Below, piece by piece: positions 3,001 to 56,603 of a DNA stretch of 64,000 nucleotides. Numbering within the stretch: the first letter of the stretch is position 1; each line of letters begins with the position of its first letter. Under the pieces are notes generated by a model that made no database searches, had not been told where the DNA came from, and was given only the letters and a program-made list of their open reading frames with translations. This stretch comes from Candidatus Buchananbacteria bacterium. Lineage in GTDB: Bacteria; Patescibacteriota; Patescibacteriia; Buchananbacterales; UBA6539. The stretch spans positions 276,441 to 340,440 of the forward strand of contig JABWCG010000001.1 of NCBI GenBank assembly GCA_013359225.1, read 5' to 3'. Both the position numbers and the translations under genes were made by a program.

Positions 3001-4325
3001 AAAACAGCCTGAATGTTGATTTCTTTAACGCAGTTGAAGAACAAGCGCCTCAGGGCAGCATCTGTGGGTATAAATTCTACGATGCTGATCAAGATGGTGT
3101 CTTTAACAACAACGATTACGGCATTGACGGTTGGAAAATCTTTGGCCTTGGCGGCAGCTTAACCAGTACTTACACTAATGAAAATGGTGAGTATTGTTTG
3201 AATGCGCTTGAGGAAGGAACCTGGAATGTTTTTGAAGAACTCTTCACCCTGCCGGGTAACTGGGCTACCACAACTGTTGCAACCAGAACAATTGAGCTAA
3301 GCAGTGAAGGTGTTATCGGCATTAACTTTGGAAACATTCTTTGTACCGATGCCGATGAAGACGGTTTTGCCGCCAATGGTGGTGCCATCTGTGGCGAACA
3401 GGACTGTGATGACAATGATTCAGAAAAAACTACTGACTGTAGTGAAGAAGAACCAAATGATCCAGGCCCTAACAACCCAGGTGGCGGAGGCGGGGGCGGA
3501 GGCGGAAGCTTCAGCAATCTAGTAATTCATACTGAAAACACTGGCAATGGTCCAGAAAGCTTAACGGTTTTGATCACTTGGTTTACTAATAAACCAGCTA
3601 CGAGCCGCGTGGTTTATGACACTGTTTCCCATCCGGAACCGGGTGAAGCGCCAAACTATGGTTACCAGTGGTCAACCCCGCAGACCGATACTGATCCAAA
3701 AGTCACTTATCACGAAGTTTTGATTAGTGGTTTGGATCCAAACACGATCTATTACTTCCGACCAATTTCTTCGGCTTCCCCGGAAGTTTTGGGAACGGAA
3801 GTTTCCTATCAGATTCTGGAAAACGGGGAAGTTATTGTTGAAGAAACTACACCTCCGGCCAATGAAGAGCCAAATCCAGGGCCCTCGGCCCAAACCCCTC
3901 AGGGTGAGGAAACGTCTGCTGCCGGTGGCGCGGGTAATACCGGTATTGTTGCCGGTGCGGAATTTGAAGAGCCAACCTTGTTAGCTCAGGGTGGTGATGC
4001 TGTACCGACTCAGCAGCCCGACAGAAATCAACCTCAGGAAACTGCCCCTGAACAAACCGCTCAAGTGGGTGCAACTGACTGTGTAATGTATATCTGGTTG
4101 CTATTAGTGATTAATATAATTACGATCGCCGACCTGGCGTACTTTGGTATGAACGCCGCTAATAACTTTGCCAAACAGTTGTGGTGGATGCTGGCAATTT
4201 TGGTGGCTGTACCTGTCATCCTTGGTTATGCTCAATGTTGGCTTGTCGTCTGGTTGCTAATCACTTTAGTAATTGCAATCATTCTGTACTTCTCAGTTAT
4301 TGCTAGAAAACAACAGCATTCATAA
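3..4325 (+). CDS. Large cell-surface protein, 5'-truncated at the window edge, with a C-terminal membrane anchor. Contains Myxococcus-type cysteine-rich repeats (DUF4215-like), SdrD/Cna B-like domains and a purple-acid-phosphatase-N/FN3-like domain.
   Basis: 1440-aa ORF open from the window start. At least six CGDG/CGNG...C.DDG.EN.DDGC motifs; ICGYK(Y/F)xDxDxDG B-type repeats; TVLITWFT...YYFRP FN3/PAP-N-like block; Gly9 run; two hydrophobic helices at the extreme C-terminus. Confidence 0.8.
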   Translation: MTHEECTPVYGDVAHDYPGKNWGTEGQAIWNNGCQIPAVCGNDVLEFGEECDDGAENVDDAQAVWSQNQGEGDRTYCSVSCESYTIPGLYCGDGQINGEEDCDDGISGSQTCSTACETIVPEPDAPVTILAWKVVCDTEAALPDWGLNGGVEPDEPDVVGPTTAADYVASSEGHCWLQEGWNFQYGPYGQLMSGDYTGSAPTENGWFDFDSVTGTSTPAQVEIEDWDDNNNLIWFREVLQPGYIPFVNPPGDNQNPISAEFYCGNDVLNFDNWEWVDGLESGETHYCVAFNVAVGCGNGIVEGQEACDDGPAGSNECSPQCTTAPECNPEIELVVNGGFEEPIVTNSNKWDIFPSTLTNWLTDWMSLSPGTFGAQTRPEEAWLELHRKVSGWLPSEGEQYAELDGDWYGPSNAGSGEPASTKIKQNLITWPGYNYEVSFDFSPRPSTGSGDNILQFNWDGGLIDTLNGAGAGNTNWSSHTYDLTATGFSTELMFADAGTSNSLGTFLDNVSVRCIPPVIPVCGDGEVNNDGEVCDDGNTENGDGCDAQCQPEEIYADYCGDGEVNQEWEQCDGDEGCTQYCQWEEQNECSDLVLARVNVDEVKNWGAGDMSSDVYLGSAGNKIPAGTWFALYYSGAGITDADLSGYENVEGLAVQRLAGTVRAVVHGTGTNNDKEHIHGNIEFYNATVTDQDNDPSNALPGANGLEDGFNGTGTGQYNASNDEVWISDATHSNFWLTTTTADDGFYSDWQIVEDCVGQICGYKYNDKDENGSLSEGDEGLENWTIKLLQFTACEEGDEWADSVVDYTQGTRRNGTPILAERTVTTKALGAAQNNDSINFVSLGFGGELILGFNNLIVNAAGNDVQVVETTYGNQVCNTYPEKADVYASQNGLDWIYLGNACLDSSFDLGTLSWAQYIKFVDATSLADFTNVPEADGYDVDGVKALNCASAVTVVETQMTDETGHYCFETATPGDYRVQEELQSNWHNTSDWFTDVDFNGENSLNVDFFNAVEEQAPQGSICGYKFYDADQDGVFNNNDYGIDGWKIFGLGGSLTSTYTNENGEYCLNALEEGTWNVFEELFTLPGNWATTTVATRTIELSSEGVIGINFGNILCTDADEDGFAANGGAICGEQDCDDNDSEKTTDCSEEEPNDPGPNNPGGGGGGGGGSFSNLVIHTENTGNGPESLTVLITWFTNKPATSRVVYDTVSHPEPGEAPNYGYQWSTPQTDTDPKVTYHEVLISGLDPNTIYYFRPISSASPEVLGTEVSYQILENGEVIVEETTPPANEEPNPGPSAQTPQGEETSAAGGAGNTGIVAGAEFEEPTLLAQGGDAVPTQQPDRNQPQETAPEQTAQVGATDCVMYIWLLLVINIITIADLAYFGMNAANNFAKQLWWMLAILVAVPVILGYAQCWLVVWLLITLVIAIILYFSVIARKQQHS
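3480..3506 (+). repeat. In-frame (GGN)9 simple repeat encoding a Gly9 linker inside the surface protein.
   Basis: ggt ggc gga ggc ggg ggc gga ggc gga read directly. The antisense frame gives the poly-Pro artefact ORF 3170..3517. Confidence 0.9.
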
Positions 4326-45600: not shown

Positions 45601-45990
45601 GTGGAAGATTTTAAGAAAACTCATAAAAAGTGGCGAAACTTTTTAATTTTTGCTGTTTTGGTAGTGCTTTTATTGATTGGCGGCTTGAATTTTTATCAAA
45701 GCTGGTCTCGCACTAAGGAAGTAAACAACGAAATCTCCCAATTGCAGGAAGAAATCAAAAATCTTGAAAAAAACAACAAAGAATTCCAGGAGCTGATTGA
45801 ATATTTTAATTCTGATGCCTATATTGAAGAGCGCGCCCGACTTGATTTGGGACTGAAAAAAGACGGTGAAAAAGTAGCCGTTATCCCTAAGGGCAATGAA
45901 ACGGCCGACACCAGATCGCAGGAAACCCAAACAAAAAACCGCTCGAATTTAACTAACCCGCAAAAATGGTGGGATTATTTTTTCAACTAA
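45601..45990 (+). CDS. FtsB/DivIC-like septum formation initiator.
   Basis: TM helix, then coiled coil (EISQLQEEIKNLEKNNKEFQE), then ...YIEERARLDLGL; GTG start. Confidence 0.6.
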   Translation: MEDFKKTHKKWRNFLIFAVLVVLLLIGGLNFYQSWSRTKEVNNEISQLQEEIKNLEKNNKEFQELIEYFNSDAYIEERARLDLGLKKDGEKVAVIPKGNETADTRSQETQTKNRSNLTNPQKWWDYFFN

Positions 45991-45993
45991 CCT

Positions 45994-47169
45994 ATGGCTA
46001 ACCCAATTAAAGAAAAAACGCCCGATCTGGACGAAACCGAAATCAGCCGCTTGCGGGATGCTGTCTTAAAATGGGTGGAAGCAAAAAAACAGGTTCCTGT
46101 AAGCCAACCAAAGCCCAGCGTCAAAAAACCGGTCAGTCCGAAGCCAAGTTCAGCGGTACTAAAGCCGGCACCAAAGGTTTTGGTAAAACCAGCAGTCTCA
46201 AATCAACCGCCCAAAATTGCCTTGCCTGAACCGGACAAAAAAATCAGCCTGCCAAGTCCACGACCGAAAAAACGGCTTAAAAAAATAATAGCGGCTTTAA
46301 TTGCTTTGTTTATCTTTAGCTTGGTCATTTTTGGTGTCGGGCTATACTACTTTAAGTGGCAAAACCAATTCACTAAAGCGGTAACAAAATTCATCCCATA
46401 TCCGGTCGCGCTGGTTAACTGGCAGCCGTTATTCTACTATACCTGGCAAGACCAGGTTGATACCCTGTGGAATTTTTACCAACGTGAAGGGGCTAACGAT
46501 TCGTCGCTTCTTATTCCATCATATTCCGAAACACAAAAGCATATTATTGATAGAATGATTGAACTATCACTCATGAACCAGTTGGCCGACTCTTATGGCG
46601 TGAGCGTCAGCGCGGCAGAAGTCAAAGAATATGTTGATTCATTAATTAAAGAAATTGGCAGCCAAGAGGCTTTGGAAAACCAACTTAAAGATTTATACCA
46701 CTGGAGTTTGGACGACTTTCAGCATGAGATTATTGAACCAGTCCTGCTAAAAAATAAATTAGCTATTGCCATTGTTTTAGACGACCGAATTAACAAAGAG
46801 GCTCACGCCAAAATGCAAGAAATTCTGGAAACGCTTCGCAGCGGCGAAAAAACTTTTGAAGAGTTAGCTGAAATATACAGTGAGGACGTCACTGCTTTAC
46901 AGGGAGGGGATTTAGGTTACTTCAGTCGGGGACAAATGGTTAAGGAGTTTGAAGATGCCGCCTTCAATCTTAAGCCGGGTGAAGTTAGCGATATTGTAAA
47001 AACCCAGTTTGGCTACCATCTGATTAAAGTTGAAGAACAATTATTGGACGAAAACGAAACCGTAGTGCAGGTCCGGGCAAAACATATTCTGATCAGGGGC
47101 GTTGATTTCAATCAGTTTTTTGAGAATTTCCGCAATCAGGCAAAAGTCTGGCGTTTCGTTAAAATATAG
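45994..47169 (+). CDS. Membrane-anchored parvulin-type peptidyl-prolyl isomerase (PrsA/SurA-like).
   Basis: K/P-rich N-terminus, TM helix, C-terminal PpiC domain [43 protein letters not shown]. Confidence 0.8.
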
Positions 47170-47192
47170 CGTAACTAAAAATCGTATCGTTT

Positions 47193-47268
47193 TGGAGCCG
47201 ACCGTGGGAATCGAACCCACAACCTACGGTTTACGATACCGTCGCTCTACCAATTGAGCTAGGTCGGC
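47193..47268 (-). tRNA. tRNA-Thr (anticodon CGU).
   Basis: Minus-strand cloverleaf: acceptor gccgacc/ggtcggc, anticodon stem acggt/accgt, loop aUCGUaa, T-arm gtggg-ttcgatt-cccac, 3' tcca. Confidence 0.85.
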
Positions 47269-47311
47269 CAACAAAAAAATACGATTTATTAGTTTGAAAT
47301 GTCACCACCCA

Positions 47312-47383
47312 AGCGGGTGAGCGGAGTCGAACCGCCGTCTTCAGCTTGGGAAGCTGACATAATAGCCGTTATACGACACCCGC
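47312..47383 (-). tRNA. tRNA-Gly (anticodon CCC).
   Basis: Minus-strand cloverleaf: acceptor gcgggtg/cacccgc, anticodon stem tcagc/gctga, loop uUCCCaa, T-arm ggcgg-ttcgact-ccgct; CCA not encoded. Confidence 0.8.
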
Positions 47384-47453
47384 TTAAGCAGTAACACTTC
47401 AAAGTATTTTAGATTATAATTCATTTTTTTAAATAAGAAAAGACCAAAACAAA

Positions 47454-48134
47454 ATGATCATTTTCCGAAATCTAAGCAAAATTTATCCGCCCGATGTGGC
47501 CGCTTTAAAAAATGTCAATCTGCACATCAAGCCAAAAGAGTTTGTTTCAATCGTCGGCCGCAGCGGTACCGGAAAGACCACCATGATGAAAATCTTAACT
47601 GCCGAAGAAAAGCCGACAAAAGGCAATATCATCGTCGGCGGTTGGGATATTACTAATATTAGGCCGTCTGAAGTTCCTGTCTTGCGCCGTCAAATCGGGG
47701 TGGTTTTTCAAGATTTCAAATTATTACATAAAAAAACCGTTTTTGAAAATATTGCTTTTGCGCTCCAAGTTTCCGGCGCGGACCGAAGAAAGATCGACGA
47801 AATTATCCCACAAGTCTTAAAAATTGTCGGCCTCAACGGCAAAGAAGACCGCTATCCGATCCAATTGTCCGGCGGCGAACAGCAGCGCGTTGCCATTGCC
47901 CGCGCCTTAGTTCATCGGCCAAAAATTCTTATTGCCGATGAACCAACCGGAAATCTGGATTCAATCAACACCCGGGAAATTGTTGATTTACTGCTCAAAA
48001 TTAATGAGTTTGGAACCACGGTGGTTATGGTTACCCATAACCGAGAAGTAGTTAATTCAATCAACAAGAGAGTTATCACTATTGATAACGGCGAAGTTGT
48101 TTCCGATCAAAAAGTTGGTAAATATTTATTATAA
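47454..48134 (+). CDS. ftsE: Cell-division ABC ATPase FtsE.
   Basis: Walker A GRSGTGKTT, signature LSGGEQQRVAIARAL, Walker B ILIADEPTGNLD; 226 aa; immediately upstream of ftsX. Confidence 0.9.
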   Translation: MIIFRNLSKIYPPDVAALKNVNLHIKPKEFVSIVGRSGTGKTTMMKILTAEEKPTKGNIIVGGWDITNIRPSEVPVLRRQIGVVFQDFKLLHKKTVFENIAFALQVSGADRRKIDEIIPQVLKIVGLNGKEDRYPIQLSGGEQQRVAIARALVHRPKILIADEPTGNLDSINTREIVDLLLKINEFGTTVVMVTHNREVVNSINKRVITIDNGEVVSDQKVGKYLL

Positions 48135-48137
48135 TCT

Positions 48138-49055
48138 ATGACGCTATCATCACTCTACCGAGTTATCATTTTTGCCTGGCAAAGCTTTTGGCGCAACATC
48201 TGGCTTTCGCTGGTTACTATTACCATCATCGTCCTGACATTTGTATCAATAAACTTTTTAATCGTGGTCAACATCATTACTGATTCGGCAATTGAAATTG
48301 TCAAAAACAAAGTTGACGTCAGCCTTTACTTTCGTCCTGATGTAACTGAACCGCAAGTTTTAGAAGTCAAAACTTATTTATCATCATTAACCCAGGTGCG
48401 AGAAATTGGGTATGTTTCACAGCAACAAGCGCTGGAAAATTTCCGCCAACAGCATCGCCAGGACACCAACATCATTGAATCACTTGCCGAACTGGAGGAA
48501 AATCCAATCGGTGCGACCTTACAGGTAAAAGCAAAAAACATTCAAGATTATCCAGAAATTATTGACGTTTTGAATAATTCAAAATATAACAATTTGATCC
48601 TGGATAAAAACTACGATGACCACAAAGTATATATTGAAAAAATCAAAAACTTTTCCGACAATATCAAAACTATCGGCTTGTTTACTTCAGGAACCTTCGC
48701 TCTGATAGCACTGCTGATTGTTTTTAACACCATCCGAGTTGCAATCTATACTCATCGTCAAGAAATTGCCATCATGAAGCTGGTCGGCGCCACTAATTGG
48801 TTTATTAAAGCGCCGTTTCTAGTTGAGGCAATTTTTTATGGCGTTATTTCCTGTATTATCAGTATTGCTGTTGTGTATCCGGCGATTGGGTTAATTCAAC
48901 CTTATGTTAATAATTTCTTTTTAACTGAAGAGTTTAACATCACTGGATATTTCAACGAAAACTTTTTCCTGATATTTGGACTGGAAATTTTGGTGATTAT
49001 TTTCCTCAATATTGTCAGTAGCAGCATCGCCATGAGGAGGTATTTAAAAGTCTAA
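48138..49055 (+). CDS. ftsX: Cell-division permease FtsX.
   Basis: One TM helix, an extracellular domain, three C-terminal TM helices; follows ftsE by 3 nt. Confidence 0.85.
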   Translation: MTLSSLYRVIIFAWQSFWRNIWLSLVTITIIVLTFVSINFLIVVNIITDSAIEIVKNKVDVSLYFRPDVTEPQVLEVKTYLSSLTQVREIGYVSQQQALENFRQQHRQDTNIIESLAELEENPIGATLQVKAKNIQDYPEIIDVLNNSKYNNLILDKNYDDHKVYIEKIKNFSDNIKTIGLFTSGTFALIALLIVFNTIRVAIYTHRQEIAIMKLVGATNWFIKAPFLVEAIFYGVISCIISIAVVYPAIGLIQPYVNNFFLTEEFNITGYFNENFFLIFGLEILVIIFLNIVSSSIAMRRYLKV

Positions 49056-49187
49056 TTTAGACACTTAATTGACTATTGACAGTGGAAAAAAATTCACTTA
49101 AGGTATAGAATTGTAAAATCAGTTTTGGAAAACTACAAAAGTCAGTTTAGGGGTAAAGTCTTAGCAAGGCGCACCCCGCACTAGTGC

Positions 49188-49258
49188 TCGGGGGTCGTCT
49201 AATGGTAGGACAGCGGGTTTTGGTCCCGTCAATCTAGGTTCGAATCCTGGCCCCCGAG
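49188..49258 (+). tRNA. tRNA-Gln (anticodon UUG).
   Basis: U1:A72 pair (tcggggg/cccccga) typical of tRNA-Gln, anticodon stem gcggg/cccgt, loop uUUUGgu, T-arm ctagg-ttcgaat-cctgg; CCA not encoded. Confidence 0.8.
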
Positions 49259-49306
49259 CAGTGGTGCGGGGCACATAACAAGTTTATTTTTAAACTTACA
49301 TACTAT

Positions 49307-50032
49307 ATGGAAATCCTAAATTATATTTGGGAATTCTATCTCTATATACCGCTATTCAACTTCTTAGTCTGGCTATACCTGACCTATTCTTGGTTTAATC
49401 TTGGTATTTCAGTCATTATTCTTACCATCCTTCTTCGGTTTGCCCTTTTGCCATTTAGCATCTTGACCGAGAAGGGGAAACTAGTCAGCATGAACTTGGG
49501 CAAGGAAGTAGCCGAGATCAAAAAAGATTTTGCCAATGACCCGGTTAAACAAAAGCAGATGATCAGGAATCTGTTAAAGAAGAAAAAGATTCGGCCGTGG
49601 GCCAAAGCCATTGTTTTAGGAGTGCAAGGTCTTGTCTTGCTCTTGCTGTATCAGGTTTTTTTGGGCGGTATTAATACCGAAGCCAAACTGCATCTTTTAT
49701 ACCCCGACATTCCGCGACCGGATTTTATCAACACCAAATTTTTATGGTTTGATATCGCTCAGCAGGACTTAGTTGCTTCAGCGCTAGTTGCTGGCTACAT
49801 TTTTGCTCAAAGCCTGATTGGCGCCTATAACCGCAAAGGTAAGCTGTCAAAAAAAGAGCAAATCTTTCTGATTTTTTTCCCGGCATTTATCTTTTTAATT
49901 CTGGCGGTGCTGCCGTCGGTTAAATCAATTTTCGTTTTGACATCATTCATTTTTTCCTCTATAATATCAATGTTTACGGCTATTATTAAAATAATGATAA
50001 CGCAGGCTAAGAAAAAGCCTCAAAGCTCATAA
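49307..50032 (+). CDS. yidC: YidC/Oxa1-family membrane protein insertase (short form).
   Basis: ...LLRFALLPFSILTEKGKLVSMNLGKEVAEIKKDFANDPVKQKQMIRNLLKKKKIRPW... matches the YidC C1 region/TM2-3 pattern; 5 TM. Confidence 0.75.
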   Translation: MEILNYIWEFYLYIPLFNFLVWLYLTYSWFNLGISVIILTILLRFALLPFSILTEKGKLVSMNLGKEVAEIKKDFANDPVKQKQMIRNLLKKKKIRPWAKAIVLGVQGLVLLLLYQVFLGGINTEAKLHLLYPDIPRPDFINTKFLWFDIAQQDLVASALVAGYIFAQSLIGAYNRKGKLSKKEQIFLIFFPAFIFLILAVLPSVKSIFVLTSFIFSSIISMFTAIIKIMITQAKKKPQSS

Positions 50033-50038
50033 AACCAT

Positions 50039-50599
50039 ATGTCTGACGAAGGTTTGGATAAGCTAATGTACTCATTTGTTGTCGAAGACGTCCTGAAAGG
50101 ATTTTTTATTCACGTCCCACCAGGATATGTCGCGGCAGTATACGATTTGGGCCGGGGGGTCTTGAAAAAAATCTATAAACCGGGCCTCCATCTCAAAATC
50201 CCGTTTTGGCAAAAAGCCAAACTGTTTAATACCCAGACGCTTGAGTACGATATCAATAAAAAATTTGATGCTGATAAACCGGAGCTGCTCGGCGACCTGC
50301 CGATAACTGCCACCAGCAAAGACGGCAAAAAAATTTCAATTGAAGGCACAATTCTGATGCGGCTTGATCCGGAACAAATCCCGGAAATTTGGCAGGGGAT
50401 TGGCGAAAAATTTGTTGAAAAAATTATTCGTCCGACTATTCAAAGCCGAATGAGAATGATCGCCGCCAAATACGACCTCCACGAGATTTCCACCAGTAAG
50501 CGCGGCGATGTCGAAGTTGATTCCCGCCAAGAGCTTGAACGGATTTTATACCCGCGCGGAATCTTTGTTGAAAATGTTTTACTTAAAGAAGTCTATTAA
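50039..50599 (+). CDS. SPFH/band-7 domain protein (short).
   Basis: ...PPGYVAAVYDLGRGVLKKIYKPGLHLKIPFWQKAKLFNTQTLEYD... SPFH core pattern. Confidence 0.6.
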   Translation: MSDEGLDKLMYSFVVEDVLKGFFIHVPPGYVAAVYDLGRGVLKKIYKPGLHLKIPFWQKAKLFNTQTLEYDINKKFDADKPELLGDLPITATSKDGKKISIEGTILMRLDPEQIPEIWQGIGEKFVEKIIRPTIQSRMRMIAAKYDLHEISTSKRGDVEVDSRQELERILYPRGIFVENVLLKEVY

Positions 50600-50612
50600 C
50601 ACTAACAGTTTC

Positions 50613-50643
50613 AAAAACCCCGGGCTCCAAGCCCGGGGTTTTA
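50613..50643 (+). terminator. Rho-independent terminator.
   Basis: aaaaaccccgggctccaagcccggggtttta. Confidence 0.8.
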
Positions 50644-50661
50644 TCTTAAACTTAAATAAAT

Positions 50662-51276
50662 ATGAAAGAGTTAATTATTGCATCTAATAATCCGGGCAAG
50701 ATTGAAGAAATCAACAATGTTTTAAAAGGCTTGAATATTACCATTAAAACTGTTCGAGAAGCCGGCCTCACTGAAGAAGCGCTGGAAGACGGGACCACTC
50801 TTGAAGAAAATGCTCTTAAGAAAGCTCATTTCGTCGCGAAACGCCTGGGCACATGGGCGGCCGCTGACGATACTGGCCTTTGTATTGAAGCTTTGAATGG
50901 CGCACCCGGTGTTTATAGCGCTCGTTGGGCGGGTGAAGGTGCTGACGAAAAAACGATGATTGATTTTGCTTTAAATAAACTAGCCGACGTACCAGCCGGT
51001 AAGCGCCAAGCATATTTTGAAACAGTAGTTGCCCTAGTAAGCCCAACGGGGGAGCACTGGCTGTTCTCGGGTAAATTACCTGGACAGATTGCTTTTGAAG
51101 CAAAAGGTAAACTGCGGCCAAAACTACCCTATAGCATGATTTTTATTCCCGATGGATTCACTAAGACTTTTTCTGAAATGACTGATGAAGAAAAAAATTC
51201 TGTCAGCCACCGCAGTATCGCTTTTAGAAAACTCAAAGAATTCCTCAAAGAAAAAAGCCACGAGGGTGTGGCTTAA
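50662..51276 (+). CDS. rdgB: Non-canonical purine NTP pyrophosphatase (RdgB/Ham1/ITPase).
   Basis: ASNNPGK(I/L)EE, ...ADDTGLCIEALNGAPGVYSARWAG and FDP motifs of the Ham1 family. Confidence 0.85.
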   Translation: MKELIIASNNPGKIEEINNVLKGLNITIKTVREAGLTEEALEDGTTLEENALKKAHFVAKRLGTWAAADDTGLCIEALNGAPGVYSARWAGEGADEKTMIDFALNKLADVPAGKRQAYFETVVALVSPTGEHWLFSGKLPGQIAFEAKGKLRPKLPYSMIFIPDGFTKTFSEMTDEEKNSVSHRSIAFRKLKEFLKEKSHEGVA

Positions 51277-51283
51277 GGTAACA

Positions 51284-52297
51284 CTAGCTATAAAGAACTT
51301 CGGCGATCTCCACTGCCGTTAGCGCCGCACCACGCAACAACTGGTCGCCGCAAACCCACAGCAGAATGTCGCCATTCGGAGTCACTCGAATCCGGCCGCA
51401 TCCAACTTCTTCTCGTCCCTCCATGTTTAATGGCATGGGGTAGATGTGCGAAGCCACATCGTCCAAGACAACAACACCGAAACTTTCGCTCAGCAGTTGG
51501 CGTACTTCTCCAACAGAAGGGCTGGCGTCGACTTGAACGGTCAGCACTTCGCTGTGGCACCGGCGAACCGGAACGCGGATGCAGGTTGCGTAAAACGGCA
51601 CAGTGTCCTTGAACAGGATTTTACGGCTCTCCCAAGCGGTTTTCATTTCCTCTTTGGTGAAACCGTCCCATTCAGCTTGAGCAACGTCAATGCGTGCCAA
51701 GAGATTGCCGGCCAAAGGATACGGCGTGGAACCGGTGGAACCGCTAGACGGCGGCAGACCGTTTTGAGCCCAGTAAGAGGTCTGGGCATCAAGATCGTCA
51801 AGCGCTTGCTTGCCCGCACCCGAGGCCGCCTGATATGACGCGAGGTCAACTCGCTGAATCGACCACGCGTGGTGAATCGGCGCCAAGGGCATCAAGGCAA
51901 TTGACGTCGTACAGTTTGGGCATGCGATAAGACGCTTGCCGATCATGTCCCTCTTGTTGATTGAGGGAATAACCAACGGCACGTTGTCATCATACCGGAA
52001 AGCCGAACTAAGATCGATTATGACCGAACAGTTGTTGGCTCCCAAGATTTGAGGAATCCACTCGCGGCTGACACCAGCGCCAGCAGCCATAAACACCAGT
52101 TCCGCGTCGCGGAACAAATCAAGTTCCAGACCGGTGATAACTGTGTCACCAACCGGCGTCTTGATTGTTTCGCCAACCGAGCTGCGGCCGGCGACAACCA
52201 GGTTAAGCGGCTTAATTTCATGCCGCCCCATGGTTTCCAACAATACTCGGCCGACCATTCCTGATCCGCCAACCACGACTGTTTTTCCGATTTGCAT
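51284..52297 (-). CDS. asd: Aspartate-semialdehyde dehydrogenase.
   Basis: N-terminal Rossmann VVVGGSGMVGRVLLE, active-site CPNCTTSIALMPLAPIHH, C-terminal dimerisation domain. The ATG at 52297 was chosen (AGGGAG SD 10 nt upstream). GC clearly higher than flanking genes. Confidence 0.85.
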   Translation of the reverse strand: MQIGKTVVVGGSGMVGRVLLETMGRHEIKPLNLVVAGRSSVGETIKTPVGDTVITGLELDLFRDAELVFMAAGAGVSREWIPQILGANNCSVIIDLSSAFRYDDNVPLVIPSINKRDMIGKRLIACPNCTTSIALMPLAPIHHAWSIQRVDLASYQAASGAGKQALDDLDAQTSYWAQNGLPPSSGSTGSTPYPLAGNLLARIDVAQAEWDGFTKEEMKTAWESRKILFKDTVPFYATCIRVPVRRCHSEVLTVQVDASPSVGEVRQLLSESFGVVVLDDVASHIYPMPLNMEGREEVGCGRIRVTPNGDILLWVCGDQLLRGAALTAVEIAEVLYS

Positions 52298-52606
52298 AAT
52301 GATCATGCTCCCTAGGGTTGCAAAAAAGGACAAACAAATAGTAGGATTATCTTAATAAAAATCGGCCCTTTTTGTCAATTAAGTAAAACCGAATACATTT
52401 TGTATTCACTTATTTTTTTATTCAATCTAAGTTATCCACCGTTTTTTTAACTATACTTTTTAGGAGGTAATTTCCGAAAACCTTGTCAAGTTTTTTTGTG
52501 AAAAAACTGTGTATTATTTAGTACTAGATAAAACCAACAAAAACCAGCCGGGAAGCACTTGTCAATTTAATTTCCATTTGCTAAACTATTCTTACTTATC
52601 ACTTAT

Positions 52607-54283
52607 ATGGTTAGTCAAAAAAATAAAAATCGGCTTATCGCTCTAGCTATTCTCATTATGGCAGTCACAGCCATCTTTTTAGATTTCCCTGGAACATTTA
52701 AAAAGATTGGTATTCCACTGCCTGGTTTTTTAGATGTTCCATTCCGACTTGGACTTGATCTGCAGGGTGGCACTCACTTGATTTACCAAGCAGACGTTTC
52801 AAATTTACCGGAATCAGAGCGGGCAAGCGCCGTTGAAGGAGTACGCGACGTTATTGAACGCCGAGTCAATGCTTTTGGTGTTGCCGAACCAAGTATTCAA
52901 ACTACCAAAGCCGGCGATACTTGGCGAGTCATTGTAGACTTGGCCGGAGTTACCGATGTTAACCAGGCTATCAGCATGATTGGCGAAACCCCATTATTAG
53001 AATTTAAAGAAGCAAATCCAAATCCAACTATTACCTTAACACCCGAACAGCAACAGCAGCTTGATACGTTCAATCAGGAAGCAAAAACCAAGGCTGAGGG
53101 GTTGTTAGCCAAAGTCCTTGAACCGGGAGCTGATTTTGCAGAAATTGCCAAAACCAACAGCGAAGATCCGGGCAGTGCATCAAACGGTGGAGACCTGGGC
53201 TTTGTTCCTCGTGGCTTGTTCGTGCCTGAATTTGAATCAGTTTGTTTTGACAAACTCAAAGTTGGCGAAACATCGAAAGAATTGGTAAAAAGTCCTTTCG
53301 GTTACCACATCATCAGAAAAGAGGGGGAAAACGGTGCGGGTGAAGATTATACCGCCAACTGCCGCCACATTATGATTACGACCCGAACCGAAAAAGACTT
53401 TGCTGCTGGTGACGATGAGTGGCTCTACACCGGCCTCACCGGAACTCAGCTTAAACGAGCCAGCGTTGAATTTGATCCAAATACCCAGATCCCTCAGGTG
53501 TTGCTTGAATTCAACGATGAGGGTAAAAACCTTTTTGCCGAAATCACCAAAAAGAATATCGGCAAGCCGGTTGCTATTTTCTTAGACGGTGAAGCAATCA
53601 GCGTTCCGACTGTTCAAAATGCCATTACCGACGGCCGAGCTGTTATTAGCGGCAATTTTAAAATCAACGAGGCAAAATTATTGGCTCAGCGCCTTAACGC
53701 CGGCGCGTTACCGGTACCAATTCAGCTTATTTCTCAGCAAACCATCGGCGCTTCTTTAGGAAACCAGTCTGTCCAAAAAAGCCTTAACGCCGGAATCATT
53801 GGTTTGATTGCTGTTGCTTTATTCATGATTGTTTATTATCGGTTGCCGGGTATAACTGCAGTTTTAAGCTTACTGTTTTATGCAGTAATCATCTTGGCAG
53901 TTTTCAAATTAGTGCCTGTCACTTTAACGCTGTCAGGAATTGCCGGATTTATTCTCTCGCTTGGCATGGCAGTGGACGCAAACATTTTGACGTTTGAGCG
54001 ACTACGCGAAGAACTTAAAGATAAAAAAATCTTACCGATTGCCATTGATGAAGGCTTTAAACGATCATGGCCGTCCATTTTTGACGGTAACACATCAACG
54101 CTAATTACTTGTTTTATCCTAATTGCATTTACCACCAGCGTCGTCAAGGGTTTTGCCATCACTTTAGCTATCGGAATTGCCATCAATCTTTTTTCGGCAA
54201 CAGTAGTTACTAAACTGATCTTAAAATCAGTTGCCCGCCTAAAGCCGTTTGGCTCACTGTGGCTGTATGGCGTCAAGAAATAA
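52607..54283 (+). CDS. secD: Protein translocase subunit SecD carrying an inserted parvulin (PpiC) PPIase domain in its periplasmic head.
   Basis: SecD N-terminal TM plus P1 motifs (LGLDLQGGTHLIYQA) and a C-terminal 5-TM SSD-like domain. Internal block ADFAEIAKTNSEDPGSASNGGDLGFVPRGLFVPEFESVCFDKLKVGETSKELVKSPFGYHIIRK is a parvulin rotamase signature. Confidence 0.85.
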   Translation: MVSQKNKNRLIALAILIMAVTAIFLDFPGTFKKIGIPLPGFLDVPFRLGLDLQGGTHLIYQADVSNLPESERASAVEGVRDVIERRVNAFGVAEPSIQTTKAGDTWRVIVDLAGVTDVNQAISMIGETPLLEFKEANPNPTITLTPEQQQQLDTFNQEAKTKAEGLLAKVLEPGADFAEIAKTNSEDPGSASNGGDLGFVPRGLFVPEFESVCFDKLKVGETSKELVKSPFGYHIIRKEGENGAGEDYTANCRHIMITTRTEKDFAAGDDEWLYTGLTGTQLKRASVEFDPNTQIPQVLLEFNDEGKNLFAEITKKNIGKPVAIFLDGEAISVPTVQNAITDGRAVISGNFKINEAKLLAQRLNAGALPVPIQLISQQTIGASLGNQSVQKSLNAGIIGLIAVALFMIVYYRLPGITAVLSLLFYAVIILAVFKLVPVTLTLSGIAGFILSLGMAVDANILTFERLREELKDKKILPIAIDEGFKRSWPSIFDGNTSTLITCFILIAFTTSVVKGFAITLAIGIAINLFSATVVTKLILKSVARLKPFGSLWLYGVKK

Positions 54284-54287
54284 TTTT

Positions 54288-55232
54288 ATGATTATCAAAT
54301 ATCGAAAAATCTGGTTTTTCCTCTCTGGCACGGCGGTACTTGCCAGCATTCTTGCCTTTGCCATCGTCGGCTTAAAGTGGGGAATTGACTTTACTGGCGG
54401 CAGCTTAGTTGAAGTAGAATTTTCCGTTACCCGCCCATCAAACGACGCAGTCAACCAAGTCCTGACATCTGTAGGTATTGATAATGCCACCATCCAGCCG
54501 GTTGAAGACACCAAAATGGTTATGCGATTTAAAGAAATCGATGAAGCCACCCACCAAAAATTGCTGACGGCCCTAGAAGATAAATTCAAACCTGAATTAA
54601 ATCTTGAAGGTGCTGCCGAGGCGGGGATTGTGGTTGATACTAAAAATGCCGTTCAGGAAACTAGATTTGATTCTATCGGACCAAGTCTCGGACAAGAACT
54701 TAAAGAAAAAACCGTTTGGGCGATTATTATTGCGCTTATTGCCATCATCAGTTACGTTGCCTGGGCTTTCCGTAAAGTCTCAAAGCCGATTGCTTCCTGG
54801 AAATATGGCCTCATCGCCATCCTTGCCTTGTTTCACGATATTATTATTACCATCGGCGTTTTCACTTTATTGGGAAAATTCTACGGCCTAGAAGTCAACG
54901 CGCCGTTTGTCGCCGCCTTACTTACCATTCTTGGTTATTCAGTTAACGACACCATTGTGGTGTTTGACCGAACCAGAGAAAACTTAGTCAGACGCATTGG
55001 CGAAAATTTTGCCCAAATTGTTCAGGAAAGCCTTAACGAAGTCATTGTCCGATCAATCAACGCCTCCTTTACCGTGTTGATAGTATTATTCGCCATTTTG
55101 TTAATTGGTGGCTCAACACTGCGAGATTTCACCCTAGCCTTGATTATTGGCGTAGCCGTTGGATCATATTCTTCAATTTTCTTAGCCAGCCCGTTACTGG
55201 TAGTCTGGGAAAAATGGATGTCCAAAAAGTAA
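54288..55232 (+). CDS. secF: Protein translocase subunit SecF.
   Basis: SecF motifs GIDFTGG, ...TILGYSVNDTIVVFDRTRE, 6 TM. The ATG at 54288 was preferred over the overlapping 54249 start. Confidence 0.9.
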   Translation: MIIKYRKIWFFLSGTAVLASILAFAIVGLKWGIDFTGGSLVEVEFSVTRPSNDAVNQVLTSVGIDNATIQPVEDTKMVMRFKEIDEATHQKLLTALEDKFKPELNLEGAAEAGIVVDTKNAVQETRFDSIGPSLGQELKEKTVWAIIIALIAIISYVAWAFRKVSKPIASWKYGLIAILALFHDIIITIGVFTLLGKFYGLEVNAPFVAALLTILGYSVNDTIVVFDRTRENLVRRIGENFAQIVQESLNEVIVRSINASFTVLIVLFAILLIGGSTLRDFTLALIIGVAVGSYSSIFLASPLLVVWEKWMSKK

Positions 55233-55454: not shown

Positions 55455-56603
55455 ATGACAGGTCAAAACTCAATTCTAGATAAAATCATCGAAAGTCAGG
55501 AAAAACAGCAAGCCGCTTCATTTAATTTAAGCGAATTGGTAAACAGCCTACTTAAGAACTTATCAAGCAAAGAAAGCGACATTTTAAGCCGCCGTTTTGG
55601 CTTAATGGGGCGAGAAAAAGAAACTTTAGAGCAAATTGGAAAATATTACAACATTACTCGGGAACGAATTCGTCAAATTGAGACTGCTACTATTAAAAAA
55701 TTAGCTGAACTAAAAGAACTAAAGGGGGAAGTAGACAGCGCCTCACAGTATGTTACTCATCTATTAGAAAATCATGGCGGTGTTATGGAAGAAAAATTCC
55801 TGCTTGATAAAATCAGCCAGTCAGCTGCCGACGAACAGCACCAGCGCTCAAGCCAGTTTATCTTAAATCATTTATTGCGGGATAAAATTGAAGGTGTCAA
55901 GCCAGACGCTGATGTTTTGCCGGGCTATAAGCTCCCGGTTGTTTCTTTGGATGTTGTTAAGGCCGCCATTAAAGAGCTGGTAGAAATGATTGATCAGCAA
56001 AAAAAGCTTCTTACTAGCGAAGAAATTTTAGACAGTTTCCGCAACTCCAACTTTTATTTGTCAAACAAAGACCAAATTACCGCCCTTAAACTTGGCACTC
56101 TTGAAGAAAATGAGGATATCGACAACATTATTCACTCGTTCTTGAGAATTGCCAAACGAGTTGACCAAAATATTTTGGGCGAGTGGGGATTGAACAACTG
56201 GAATACCGTCAAACCAAAGCGCATGAGCGACAAGGTGTATCTTGTTTTGAAGAAGCACGGTAAACCGCTCCATTTCACTGACATTACCAACCTGATTAAC
56301 CAGGAAAAATTTGACAAAAAAATTGCATACCCAGCCACTATTCACAATGAATTAATCCTGGACGACCGTTATGTTCTAGTCGGCCGCGGTATTTATGCAC
56401 TACAAGAATGGGGCTACAAACCGGGCACCGTTATTGATACGATTATTGAAATTTTGACCAAAGCCGGTAAACCAATGACCAAAGAAGAAATCGTCAAAGC
56501 CGTCTTAGACCAAAGAATGGTTCGAAAAAGCACCATCTATCTTGCTTTAACCAATAAAGACAAGATCAAAAAACTCCCTGATGGTCGCTATACCATCAAC
56601 TAA
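55455..56603 (+). CDS. Sigma-70 region-4 domain protein with C-terminal HARE-HTH-like (RNAP delta-subunit-like) winged-helix domains.
   Basis: LSSKESDILSRRFGLMGREKETLEQIGKYYNITRERIRQIETATIKKL matches the sigma70_r4 HTH. C-terminus (VYLVLKKHGKPLHFTDITNLI...YVLVGRGIYAL; IIEILTKAGKPMTKEEIVKAV...) resembles HARE-HTH. Confidence 0.6.
   Translation: MTGQNSILDKIIESQEKQQAASFNLSELVNSLLKNLSSKESDILSRRFGLMGREKETLEQIGKYYNITRERIRQIETATIKKLAELKELKGEVDSASQYVTHLLENHGGVMEEKFLLDKISQSAADEQHQRSSQFILNHLLRDKIEGVKPDADVLPGYKLPVVSLDVVKAAIKELVEMIDQQKKLLTSEEILDSFRNSNFYLSNKDQITALKLGTLEENEDIDNIIHSFLRIAKRVDQNILGEWGLNNWNTVKPKRMSDKVYLVLKKHGKPLHFTDITNLINQEKFDKKIAYPATIHNELILDDRYVLVGRGIYALQEWGYKPGTVIDTIIEILTKAGKPMTKEEIVKAVLDQRMVRKSTIYLALTNKDKIKKLPDGRYTIN

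What the first reader, a model, noticed from the sequence alone, without database searches (positions are those of the whole stretch)
52607..54283. SecD with a parvulin-type PPIase domain inserted in its periplasmic head
The protein has unmistakable SecD ends (N-terminal TM plus LGLDLQGGTHLIYQ, C-terminal 5-TM domain).

In between it contains a canonical PpiC/parvulin rotamase block (GGDLGFVPRGLFVPEFESVCF...SPFGYHIIRK).

That block is essentially the same domain found in the separate PrsA-like gene at 45994-47169.

Fusing a foldase to the SecDF motor would couple translocation to prolyl isomerisation at the exit site. I do not recognise this architecture as standard.
Basis: partly seen in the sequence, partly recalled or inferred. 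Interest (0 to 1): 0.65.

Follow-up and report, generated by a model that had tools for sequence, protein, structure and literature searches.

The report
SecD carrying a built-in prolyl isomerase
In this candidate-phyla-radiation bacterium the protein-export motor subunit SecD has a protein-folding enzyme (a parvulin prolyl isomerase, with its strands in a rearranged order) spliced into its outward-facing domain, and hundreds of related species share the arrangement although no paper found here describes it.

Summary
Window 52607-54283 (+) is one intact 558-aa ORF. It is a full SecD with a parvulin/PpiC domain (aa ~146-258) between the P1-base module, which ends LEFKEA136, and the first P1-head strand (W272-LYTGLTG).

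It is not a frameshift or assembly chimera. All 120 best protein homologues and all 80 species-representative genome loci examined carry the same stop-free secD-parvulin-secD frame. They span many Patescibacteria lineages. Related variants have two parvulins, or a single-chain SecDF. Some Parcubacteria SecDF proteins lack the insert.

The parvulin catalytic tetrad is conserved: D187, S/T229 and H234 in 81/81 sequences, H254 in 79/81.

The His-bearing strand that normally opens a parvulin (xHILv) instead follows the last strand as a hairpin. The separate PrsA-like gene at 45994-47169 has the same order but is only 41% identical.

Most likely function (inferred): a foldase/holdase tethered at the hinge of the proton-driven SecDF head. 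It would act on chains as they leave SecYEG, a covalent version of the PpiD-SecD, SurA-SecDF and Mpn444-SecD contacts.

No paper describing the fusion or a permuted parvulin was found. I rate it a new variant of a known kind, of moderate interest.

The parts
52607..54283 (+). secD CDS (558 aa, stop included) encoding SecD with an inserted parvulin domain
   Evidence: Single ORF. TIGR01129 scores 387 bits against a cutoff of 244. 100% identical to an NCBI MAG protein named 'protein translocase subunit SecD [Candidatus Buchananbacteria bacterium]'.
52616..52684 (+). N-terminal transmembrane helix (aa 4-26)
   Evidence: AF2 helix 4-26, hydrophobic LIALAILIMAVTAIFL
52739..52795 (+). SecD/SecF GG motif (aa 45-63)
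   Evidence: PF07549, 22.6 bits against a cutoff of 20.3
52835..53014 (+). P1 base, N-terminal module (SecD_1st, aa 77-136), ending in strand LEFKEA
   Evidence: PF21760 E 3.8e-16. Aligns to Thermus SecDF residues 33-118.
53015..53419 (+). Whole insert relative to canonical SecD (aa 137-271): N-linker, parvulin domain, C-linker with two short helices
   Evidence: It takes the place of about 40 residues (119-157) of Thermus SecDF and about 20 residues of E. coli SecD. GC is 0.464 against 0.434-0.436 in the flanking parts of the gene, so there is no compositional sign of recent acquisition.
53042..53380 (+). Parvulin (PpiC-type PPIase) domain, aa 146-258. Predicted element order: long helix (146-170), helix (177-184), strand (196-201), helix (207-216), strand (227-229), strand (232-242), strand (249-258). 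By comparison with the canonical parvulin order this reads as a1-a2/a3-b2-a4-b3-b4-b1' (circularly permuted).
   Evidence: PF00639 and PF13616 matches. AF2 pLDDT is 93-98 in the isolated-segment model and 84-91 in the full model. PDB sequence hits to PrsA, SurA and PpiC.
53165..53167 (+). Asp187, equivalent of Pin1 Cys113 / PrsA Asp (catalytic tetrad)
   Evidence: 81/81 conserved. The residue equivalence comes from recalled parvulin sequences.
53291..53308 (+). Ser229...His234 (S-P-F-G-Y-H), equivalents of Pin1 Thr152 and His157
   Evidence: S/T 81/81 and H 81/81; H234 invariant in 83 and in 89 protein homologues
53351..53380 (+). Relocated b1' strand TANCRHIMIT with His254 (codon 53366-53368), equivalent of Pin1 His59
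   Evidence: H254 is invariant in 83/83 and 89/89 homologues and present in 79/81 loci. AF2 predicts a hairpin E232-242 / E249-258. Moving this strand in front of the domain extends the Pfam match to profile position 1.
53420..53716 (+). P1 head subdomain (aa 272-370)
   Evidence: PF22599, 104 bits, profile 21-114 at aa 277-370. Aligns to Thermus SecDF from residue 158 onward.
53720..54241 (+). SecD membrane domain, five TM helices (aa 372-545), with Asp457 equivalent to E. coli SecD Asp519
   Evidence: PF02355. AF2 helices 383-543. D457 is invariant. E. coli D519 lies in the same AVDAN motif.
54288..55232 (+). secF, probable ATG start 4 nt after the secD stop (the mechanical ORF begins at TTG 54249)
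   Evidence: TIGR00966 scores 282 bits against a cutoff of 160 and aligns from residue 14 of the TTG ORF. Sequence checked. The Arg equivalent to E. coli SecF R247 is present.
45994..47169 (+). Separate membrane-anchored PrsA/SurA-like foldase with a parvulin domain of the same permuted order
   Evidence: SurA_N_3 plus Rotamase. 41% identity to the SecD insert, including the trailing KHILI strand. The rearrangement test gave the same result.
52559..52587 (+). Promoter-like site (TTGTCA-17-TAAACT, TG) 20 nt upstream of secD
   Evidence: Consensus scan only. The number of sites found is not above shuffled expectation, so this is weak evidence.

Best explanation
The gene encodes a functional SecD subunit of the proton-driven SecDF export motor, with an extracytoplasmic parvulin-type prolyl isomerase domain spliced into the polypeptide. 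The splice point is the segment that leads from the P1 base into the mobile P1 head.

Shown here:
- The architecture and its position in SecD.
- Its conservation across many Patescibacteria species.
- Conservation of the parvulin catalytic tetrad.
- Conservation of the SecD and SecF residues that correspond to E. coli SecD D519 and SecF R247, which I recall as the proton-pathway residues.
- The permuted strand order, at the level of sequence and predicted secondary structure.

Inferred:
- P1 lies outside the membrane, next to the SecYEG exit, and its head binds emerging chains. The tethered parvulin would therefore meet unfolded substrates as they emerge.
- There it would bind them and catalyse Xaa-Pro cis/trans isomerisation, acting as foldase and holdase. 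This would speed folding and release and limit back-sliding, aggregation or loss.
- The fusion would do covalently what PpiD, SurA, PrsA or Mpn444 do by contacting SecD/SecDF non-covalently.
- The domain probably arose from a SurA-like tandem parvulin by truncation, which left the next domain's first strand to complete the sheet.
For: Architecture and family scores.

Insertion site, mapped against Thermus SecDF and E. coli SecD.

Fold: Foldseek matches the full model to SecDF crystal structures at E 6e-25. AF2 models the parvulin confidently, with pLDDT 93-98 in the isolated-segment model.

Conservation of the fused frame: 120/120 homologues and 80/80 genome loci. The fusion also appears in Uhr-, Kuenen-, Magasanik-, Gracili- and Peregrinibacteria, sometimes as single-chain SecDF.

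Catalytic residues: D187, S/T229 and H234 in 81/81; H254 in 79/81.

Motor residues: SecD D457 invariant; SecF Arg present.

Permutation:
- 91/91 single-parvulin SecDs lack an upstream His strand and have a trailing one. Among the 134 non-SecD multi-parvulin proteins used as controls, 108 have an upstream His strand and only 2 have a trailing one.
- The rearranged sequence matches Pfam from profile position 1, with 3-6 more bits.
- In 29 two-parvulin SecDs the first domain's b4 His and the trailing-strand His are both lost, while the inner domain keeps both in 27/29.
- SurA aligns as P1 plus the first strand of P2.

Functional context from papers:
- SurA binds the holo-translocon, with SecDF periplasmic domains proposed to recruit it (PMC9987972).
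- The Mpn444 PPIase crosslinks to SecD (10.1101/2024.09.05.611430).
Against: - No activity or substrate data exist for any member.
- The full model has pTM 0.44, so the position of the parvulin relative to the head, the base and SecYEG is not reliably predicted.
- In B. subtilis PrsA, active-site mutations abolish PPIase activity with little effect on secretion (PMC12445088). Catalysis may therefore matter less than binding.
- In the two-parvulin variants the outer domain has lost both His residues, so the scaffold tolerates an inactive parvulin.
- A separate PrsA-like foldase is encoded 5 kb away, so the fusion is not the cell's only parvulin.
Confidence: 0.7

Rival explanations
1. The inserted parvulin works mainly as a substrate-binding (holdase or 'extra hand') module that enlarges the P1 head's capture surface. 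Isomerase catalysis is dispensable, as in the inactive parvulin domains of PpiD and SurA P1.
For: - PrsA active-site mutants keep their secretion function (PMC12445088).
- In the two-parvulin SecD variants the outer domain has lost both His residues in all 29 sequences, so a non-catalytic parvulin is tolerated at this site.
Against: - The tetrad D187 / S-T229 / H234 / H254 is essentially invariant in single-domain forms across sequences down to about 46% identity. Residues without a role are not expected to be held that tightly.
- In tandem forms, 27 of 29 keep one parvulin with both His residues.
Confidence: 0.2
2. The fusion is an artefact: a frameshift, mis-assembly or gene-calling error that joins secD to a neighbouring PPIase gene.
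For: None found.
Against: - The parvulin is internal, with SecD sequence on both sides in one frame.
- The same architecture is present in 120/120 homologues from independent assemblies and in 80/80 species-representative genomes.
- GC content of the insert is similar to the rest of the gene.
Confidence: 0.01
3. The insert has a role unrelated to folding of Sec substrates. Examples would be anchoring SecDF to the cell wall or S-layer, binding a host-cell or partner protein, or regulating head movement. The parvulin fold would be only a scaffold.
For: Patescibacteria have unusual envelopes and episymbiotic lifestyles (general knowledge). The poorly defined interdomain geometry (pTM 0.44) leaves room for other partners.
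Against: - Conservation falls on catalytic and proline-pocket positions (D187, L197, F209, S/T229, H234, H254), not on a new surface.
- Known parvulin partners of Sec machinery all act on translocating chains (PMC9643414, PMC9987972).
Confidence: 0.07

Closest known systems
Canonical SecD/SecDF (Thermus thermophilus SecDF 3AQP/5YHF, Deinococcus 5XAN, E. coli SecD)
   Same: - N-terminal TM helix, GG motif, P1 base and P1 head.
- Five-helix RND-type membrane domain with the conserved Asp.
- Adjacent secF.
- 30% identity to Thermus SecDF over the aligned model.
   Different: About 135 residues, including a complete parvulin domain, lie between the base strand LEFK and the first head strand. Thermus has about 40 residues there and E. 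coli about 20.
PrsA (Bacillus/Staphylococcus lipoprotein foldase) and SurA / PpiD parvulin chaperones
   Same: - Extracytoplasmic parvulin domain of the Asp-type (non-phospho) class; best PDB sequence hits are S. aureus PrsA 2JZV (E 5e-15) and SurA.
- Presumed post-translocational action on Sec substrates.
- PpiD and SurA physically meet SecD/SecDF (PMC9643414, PMC9987972).
   Different: - No NC/SurA-N chaperone domain and no membrane anchor of its own; the carrier is SecD itself.
- Scores lie far below the PrsA equivalog cutoffs (57 against 343 bits).
- The strand order is permuted.
Mycoplasma pneumoniae Mpn444 PPIase-SecD association
   Same: In a wall-less or monoderm-type minimal bacterium, an extracellular PPIase is placed at SecD and the translocon (10.1101/2024.09.05.611430).
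   Different: Mpn444 is a separate trimeric lipoprotein that crosslinks to SecD. Here the isomerase is part of the SecD chain.
Bacteroides PPIase 8HM3/8HM4 (BfUbb target)
   Same: Best structural match of the isolated insert model (Foldseek E 3e-7, 140-168 aligned columns). The sequence alignment runs through the trailing strand (query aa 167-260 of SecD).
   Different: A 427-aa soluble multi-domain PPIase, not a SecD. I did not establish whether its matching strand belongs to the same domain or the next one.

Membership tests
SecD (TIGR01129 / PF21760 + PF22599 + PF02355) | Full-length match above the curated cutoff of the SecD equivalog-domain model | tested here: met
   TIGR01129 scores 387.3 bits against a cutoff of 244.4, covering aa 48-539 and profile positions 1-397
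SecD (TIGR01129 / PF21760 + PF22599 + PF02355) | Topology: TM1, large periplasmic P1 (base plus head), then five TM helices. Fold matches SecDF crystal structures. | tested here: met
   AF2 secondary structure. Foldseek best hits are 5YHF, 5XAN and 3AQP at E 1e-21 to 6e-25.
SecD (TIGR01129 / PF21760 + PF22599 + PF02355) | Conserved membrane Asp (E. coli SecD D519) and partner SecF with conserved Arg (E. coli SecF R247). Their role as proton-pathway residues is recalled from the literature, not checked here. | tested here: met
   D457 lies in the AVDAN motif and is invariant in 89 homologues. secF is adjacent, with the Arg present.
SecD (TIGR01129 / PF21760 + PF22599 + PF02355) | PMF-dependent stimulation of Sec translocation | not testable with these tools
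   Requires biochemistry or genetics
Parvulin / PpiC-type PPIase (PF00639, PF13616) | Profile match above the gathering threshold | tested here: met
   PF00639 scores 68.5 bits (cutoff 21.7). PF13616 scores 77.7 bits (cutoff 22.5).
Parvulin / PpiC-type PPIase (PF00639, PF13616) | Catalytic tetrad His / Asp(Cys) / Thr(Ser) / His (Pin1 H59, C113, T152, H157) | tested here: met
   H254, D187, S229 and H234 are present. Conservation is 79/81, 81/81, 81/81 and 81/81. The mapping to Pin1 numbering comes from recalled sequences.
Parvulin / PpiC-type PPIase (PF00639, PF13616) | Canonical element order b1-a1-a2-a3-b2-a4-b3-b4 | tested here: not met
   The Pfam match starts at profile position 11 (PF00639) or 30 (PF13616), and no strand precedes helix 146-170. 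The His strand follows b4. All elements are present but permuted, so this is a family member by sequence with a variant topology.
Parvulin / PpiC-type PPIase (PF00639, PF13616) | Measured prolyl isomerase activity | not testable with these tools
   Requires an enzyme assay
PrsA foldase (NCBIfam NF002827 / NF002846 equivalogs) | Full-length match above cutoff: lipoprotein signal, NC chaperone domain, parvulin | tested here: not met
   57.1 bits against a cutoff of 343, and 50 against 361. Only the parvulin part aligns. The insert works like the PPIase module of PrsA but is not a PrsA.
Single-chain SecDF | SecD and SecF in one polypeptide (12 TM helices) | tested here: not met
   secF is a separate ORF starting 4 nt after the secD stop. 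Single-chain parvulin-bearing SecDF proteins do exist in related lineages.

The most novel reading that the evidence does not exclude
The insert is a naturally circularly permuted but catalytically competent parvulin. Its new termini lie at the b1-a1 loop next to the active site, and they wire it into the hinge of the SecDF P1 head. Proton-driven head swings (F/I-form transitions) would then mechanically present the emerging chain to the isomerase and withdraw it. That would make an energy-coupled foldase, in which membrane potential indirectly paces prolyl isomerisation and folding outside the cell. It would also be the first described permuted parvulin topology, made by tandem duplication and truncation, with the two-parvulin SecDs as living intermediates.
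Probability: 0.15. Interest if true: 0.8.

Novelty: new variant of a known kind. Interest (0 to 1): 0.55.

Why it matters
How chains leaving SecYEG are handed to extracytoplasmic chaperones is an open question, and so is whether SecDF recruits those chaperones. The current evidence consists of crosslinks and low-resolution complexes (PpiD-SecD, SurA-holo-translocon, Mpn444-SecD).

A conserved natural fusion of a parvulin to the SecD P1 domain, across a very large bacterial radiation, is independent 'Rosetta-stone' evidence that the two activities belong together. It also gives a compact single-polypeptide system in which to test that by structure and mutagenesis.

It adds a feature of envelope biology to Patescibacteria, which have reduced genomes and no cultured model for secretion. 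The apparent circular permutation, with both His residues retained, would be a useful case for parvulin structure-function and for domain evolution.

On the practical side, these proteins are currently annotated only as 'SecD', so the foldase domain is invisible in functional summaries.

Tried and rejected
1. Insertion hot-spot idea. I expected the extra length of E. coli SecD (615 aa) to sit at the same site. Pfam shows it lies upstream instead (SecD-TM1 plus a region before SecD_1st), and only about 20 residues separate SecD_1st from the head profile in E. coli. Rejected.

2. A three-sequence MAFFT alignment paired E. coli 'KRVILTG' with our 'CRHIMITT'. Pfam coordinates and the HMMER alignment to Thermus show that the true counterpart of (V)ILTG is our YTGLTG at aa 274-279. 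That MAFFT pairing was therefore discarded.

3. Counting fusions with the 1.84-billion-representative search using the insert alone was not informative. The ranking was dominated by multi-parvulin proteins (134 of the top 150), and only 16 were SecD fusions.

5. Literature searches found no description of the fusion or of a permuted parvulin. The term sets were SecD + parvulin; SecD / PPIase / Patescibacteria; SecD + peptidyl-prolyl + candidate phyla radiation; SecD + rotamase; SecDF / PrsA / fusion protein / Parcubacteria; and parvulin + circular permutation. The one paper containing all the CPR terms mentions SecD and a Rotamase_2 protein separately. A search for P1 head/base boundaries returned nothing.

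6. Recent acquisition of the insert: its GC and GC3 are not distinct from the rest of the gene.

7. Promoter and terminator scan: site counts are no higher than in shuffled sequence.
Full report

Yes. Window 52607-54283 (+) is a single ATG-initiated ORF of 558 aa with no internal stop. Pfam places these modules in order:
- Sec_GG, aa 45-63
- SecD_1st (P1 base, N-terminal part), aa 77-136
- Rotamase PF00639, aa 152-238 (68.5 bits, cutoff 21.7)
- Rotamase_3 PF13616, aa 153-237 (77.7 bits)
- SecDF_P1_head, aa 277-370 (104 bits, profile positions 21-114)
- SecD_SecF_C, aa 372-541

The NCBIfam SecD model TIGR01129 is passed at 387 bits against a cutoff of 244. The next ORF is SecF (TIGR00966, 282 bits against 160). 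Its likely ATG at 54288 lies 4 nt after the secD stop. The PrsA-like gene at 45994-47169 is real and carries SurA_N_3 plus Rotamase.

**2. Artefact or biology?**

The protein is 100% identical to an NCBI MAG protein named 'protein translocase subunit SecD [Candidatus Buchananbacteria bacterium]' on a 601-kb contig.
- All 120 best homologues, down to 52% identity and from NCBI, JGI, ENA and Logan assemblies, carry both SecD and Rotamase Pfam domains.
The 80 kept all matched residues 1-182 or more of the 189-residue junction-parvulin-junction query, and 79 of them matched at least 1-187.
- In all 80 loci one stop-free frame has the order SecD-N, parvulin, SecD-C by my own HMMs.
- Record titles name Buchanan-, Kuenen-, Falkow-, Uhr-, Magasanik-, Komeili- and Kerfeld-bacteria, Paceibacter and Parcubacteria.
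- A second protein search seeded with a 905-aa single-chain SecDF-parvulin added Gracilibacteria and Peregrinibacteria. Their SecDF forms are 1000-1080 aa and carry parvulin domains. The same search found Parcubacteria SecD/SecF fusions of about 740 aa that have no Rotamase domain.

The insertion is therefore widespread but not universal in Patescibacteria. A frameshift or chimera is excluded. The insert's GC content (0.464) is close to that of the rest of the gene (0.434-0.436).

**3. Where exactly is the insert?**

HMMER aligns query 46-152 to Thermus SecDF 33-134, and query 275-544 to Thermus 158-427. The base strand LEFKEA (131-136) corresponds to Thermus LEFRIV. The first head strand, W272-LYTGLTG, corresponds to Thermus PLLTG.

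In E. coli, SecD_1st (227-285) and the head profile (306-431, from profile position 6) are only about 20 residues apart. In this protein the Pfam matches are separated by 140 residues (aa 137-276). The first head strand already begins at aa 272, so I take the insert to be aa 137-271.

The parvulin thus sits in the N-terminal of the two chain connections between P1 base and P1 head. It is not in the body of the head. My first guess was that E. coli SecD's extra length marks the same hot-spot. That was wrong, because the extra length lies upstream.

**4. What the inserted domain looks like**

By sequence it is closest to PrsA and SurA parvulins: 2JZV at E 5e-15, and SurA P2. AF2 with 89 homologues gives mean pLDDT 80, but pTM is only 0.44, so interdomain geometry is not reliable. 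The isolated segment gives pLDDT 93-98 over the parvulin.

The predicted element order is helix 146-170, helix 177-184, strand 196-201, helix 207-216, strand 227-229, strand 232-242, strand 249-258. Canonical parvulins begin with the His-bearing strand b1 (xHILv). Here nothing of that kind precedes the first helix, and Pfam matches start at profile position 11 (PF00639) or 30 (PF13616). Instead a strand 'CRHIMIT' follows b4 ('GYHIIRK') after a six-residue turn.

Evidence that this is a circular permutation and not a leftover:
- **(a)** H254 is invariant in 83 and in 89 homologues and present in 79/81 loci. Its conservation matches that of H234.
- **(b)** Pasting aa 246-261 in front of aa 146-243 extends both Pfam matches towards the profile start: PF00639 from position 11 to 1, and PF13616 from 30 to 15. 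Scores rise by 3-5 bits. The same test on the PrsA-like protein gives +2 to +6 bits.
- **(c)** 91/91 single-parvulin SecDs have no upstream His strand and do have a trailing one. Among 134 non-SecD multi-parvulin proteins used as controls, 108 have an upstream His strand and only 2 have a trailing one.
- **(d)** In 29 two-parvulin SecDs the first domain's b4 His and the trailing-strand His are both absent in all 29. The inter-domain strand His is kept in 27/29 and the second domain's b4 His in 29/29. This is the pattern expected if the trailing strand belongs structurally to the first (outer) domain and a canonical parvulin is nested between them.
- **(e)** SurA aligns to the insert as P1 (without its b1) plus the b1 strand of P2, 'VHARHILL'. 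This suggests an origin by truncation of a tandem.

I could not inspect coordinates, so the three-dimensional closure of the active site is inferred.

**5. Is it likely to be active?**

The parvulin hydrogen-bond tetrad is Pin1 H59 / C113 / T152 / H157, with Asp replacing Cys in PrsA-type enzymes. This is recalled knowledge. It maps to H254, D187, S229 and H234. Conservation over 81 sequences is 79, 81, 81 (S or T) and 81.

The positions that I map, from the recalled Pin1 sequence, to the proline pocket are also conserved: L197, F205 (F, L or M) and F209. The permutation cut falls at the b1-a1 loop. That loop is the phosphate-binding loop in Pin1, and it is absent here, as in other non-phospho-specific parvulins.

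On the SecD side, D457 (equivalent to E. coli D519) is invariant, and the SecF Arg equivalent to E. coli R247 is present. The motor part therefore looks intact.

**6. Mechanism proposed (inference)**

SecDF's P1 head is thought to capture chains emerging from SecYEG and to swing between F and I forms using the proton gradient. This is established for Thermus and Deinococcus SecDF; the structures were recovered.

A parvulin tethered at the hinge by short linkers (aa 137-145 and 259-271) would sit beside that capture site. It could bind unfolded segments and isomerise Xaa-Pro bonds as they emerge.

This mirrors non-covalent arrangements described elsewhere:
- SurA binds the SecYEG-SecDF-YidC holo-translocon, with SecDF periplasmic domains proposed as the recruitment site (PMC9987972).
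- The Mpn444 PPIase crosslinks to SecD in Mycoplasma (10.1101/2024.09.05.611430).

In small cells without a periplasm bounded by an outer membrane (a general-knowledge assumption for Patescibacteria), tethering a foldase to the exit machinery is a simple way to keep it where substrates appear.

The main rival is a binding-only role. PrsA tolerates loss of PPIase activity (PMC12445088), and the outer domain of tandem forms is degenerate. The strict tetrad conservation in single-domain forms argues that catalysis is selected.

**7. Relation to the PrsA-like gene**

The two parvulin domains share 41% identity over 108 aa, including the trailing strand. They share family and permuted order but are not recent copies. 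The PrsA-like protein has its own TM anchor and a SurA-N chaperone domain. The cell therefore has both a free-standing foldase and a SecD-borne one.

**8. Novelty**

The architecture is visible in precomputed Pfam annotations, but source names say only 'SecD'. Six literature searches found no description of a SecD-parvulin fusion or of a circularly permuted parvulin. The searchable library lacks most subscription-journal papers, so prior mention cannot be excluded.

I classify it as a new variant of a known kind. All the parts are known; the combination and the topology are not described. Interest is moderate (0.55).
- It is not a new mechanism class.
- It is a phylum-scale natural fusion that bears directly on the open question of how SecDF and extracytoplasmic chaperones cooperate.
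- It offers a tractable construct for testing that question.

Noticed in passing
window 51284-52333 (-): The aspartate-semialdehyde dehydrogenase-like gene (Semialdhyde_dh + Semialdhyde_dhC) has GC 0.545 against 0.414 for the window. It lies on the minus strand within a long run of plus-strand genes. It is a compositional outlier and possibly horizontally acquired.
   Followed up: no
window 55455-56603 (+): A 382-aa protein combines Sigma-70 region 4 (aa 32-83) with a HARE-HTH domain (aa 262-319), directly downstream of secF. This is an unusual pairing and its function is unknown.
   Followed up: no
window 45601-55232: A cluster of envelope and division genes lies on one strand: DivIC, PrsA-like foldase, FtsE, FtsX, a short YidC (241 aa), an SPFH/Band-7 protein, then (after Ham1 and asd) SecD and SecF. 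YidC, a foldase and SecDF thus sit within about 9 kb.
   Followed up: partly
window 45994-47169 (+): The PrsA-like protein has a roughly 95-aa Pro/Lys/Val-rich N-terminal region before its TM helix. Its parvulin shows the same permuted order: the trailing strand VRAKHILI follows GYHLIKV, and there is no upstream His strand.
   Followed up: partly
related proteins P0064-P0119 (for example P0110, 685 aa) and loci: A subgroup of SecDs carries two parvulins. The first has lost both catalytic His residues (b4 reads 'NISII', the trailing strand 'SRILI'). The second is a full canonical parvulin (Pfam profile 2-115). This is consistent with a canonical domain nested inside a permuted one.
   Followed up: partly
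proteins P0179, P0281, P0286, P0353, P0358 and P0291-P0310: Single-chain SecDF proteins of 900-1080 aa with parvulin insert(s) occur in Magasanik-, Gracili- and Peregrinibacteria. Parcubacteria 'SecD/SecF fusion' proteins of about 740 aa at 42-48% identity have no Rotamase domain. Presence of the insert therefore varies within the phylum.
   Followed up: partly
loci L001, L007, L012-L014 and others: Many species-representative contigs that encode this patescibacterial SecD are titled 'uncultured Gammaproteobacteria bacterium', and one homologue is labelled Bipolaricaulota (P0109). These are probably taxonomic mislabels in the source records.
   Followed up: no
proteins P0134, P0157, P0164, P0249 (350-375 aa): Several representatives contain a parvulin followed by only the first ~100 positions of the SecD C-part, with no detected SecD N-part. 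They may be fragments or stand-alone parvulin-P1-head proteins.
   Followed up: no
window 3-4325 (+): An ORF of at least 1440 aa begins at base 3 of the window. Its identity was not examined.
   Followed up: no
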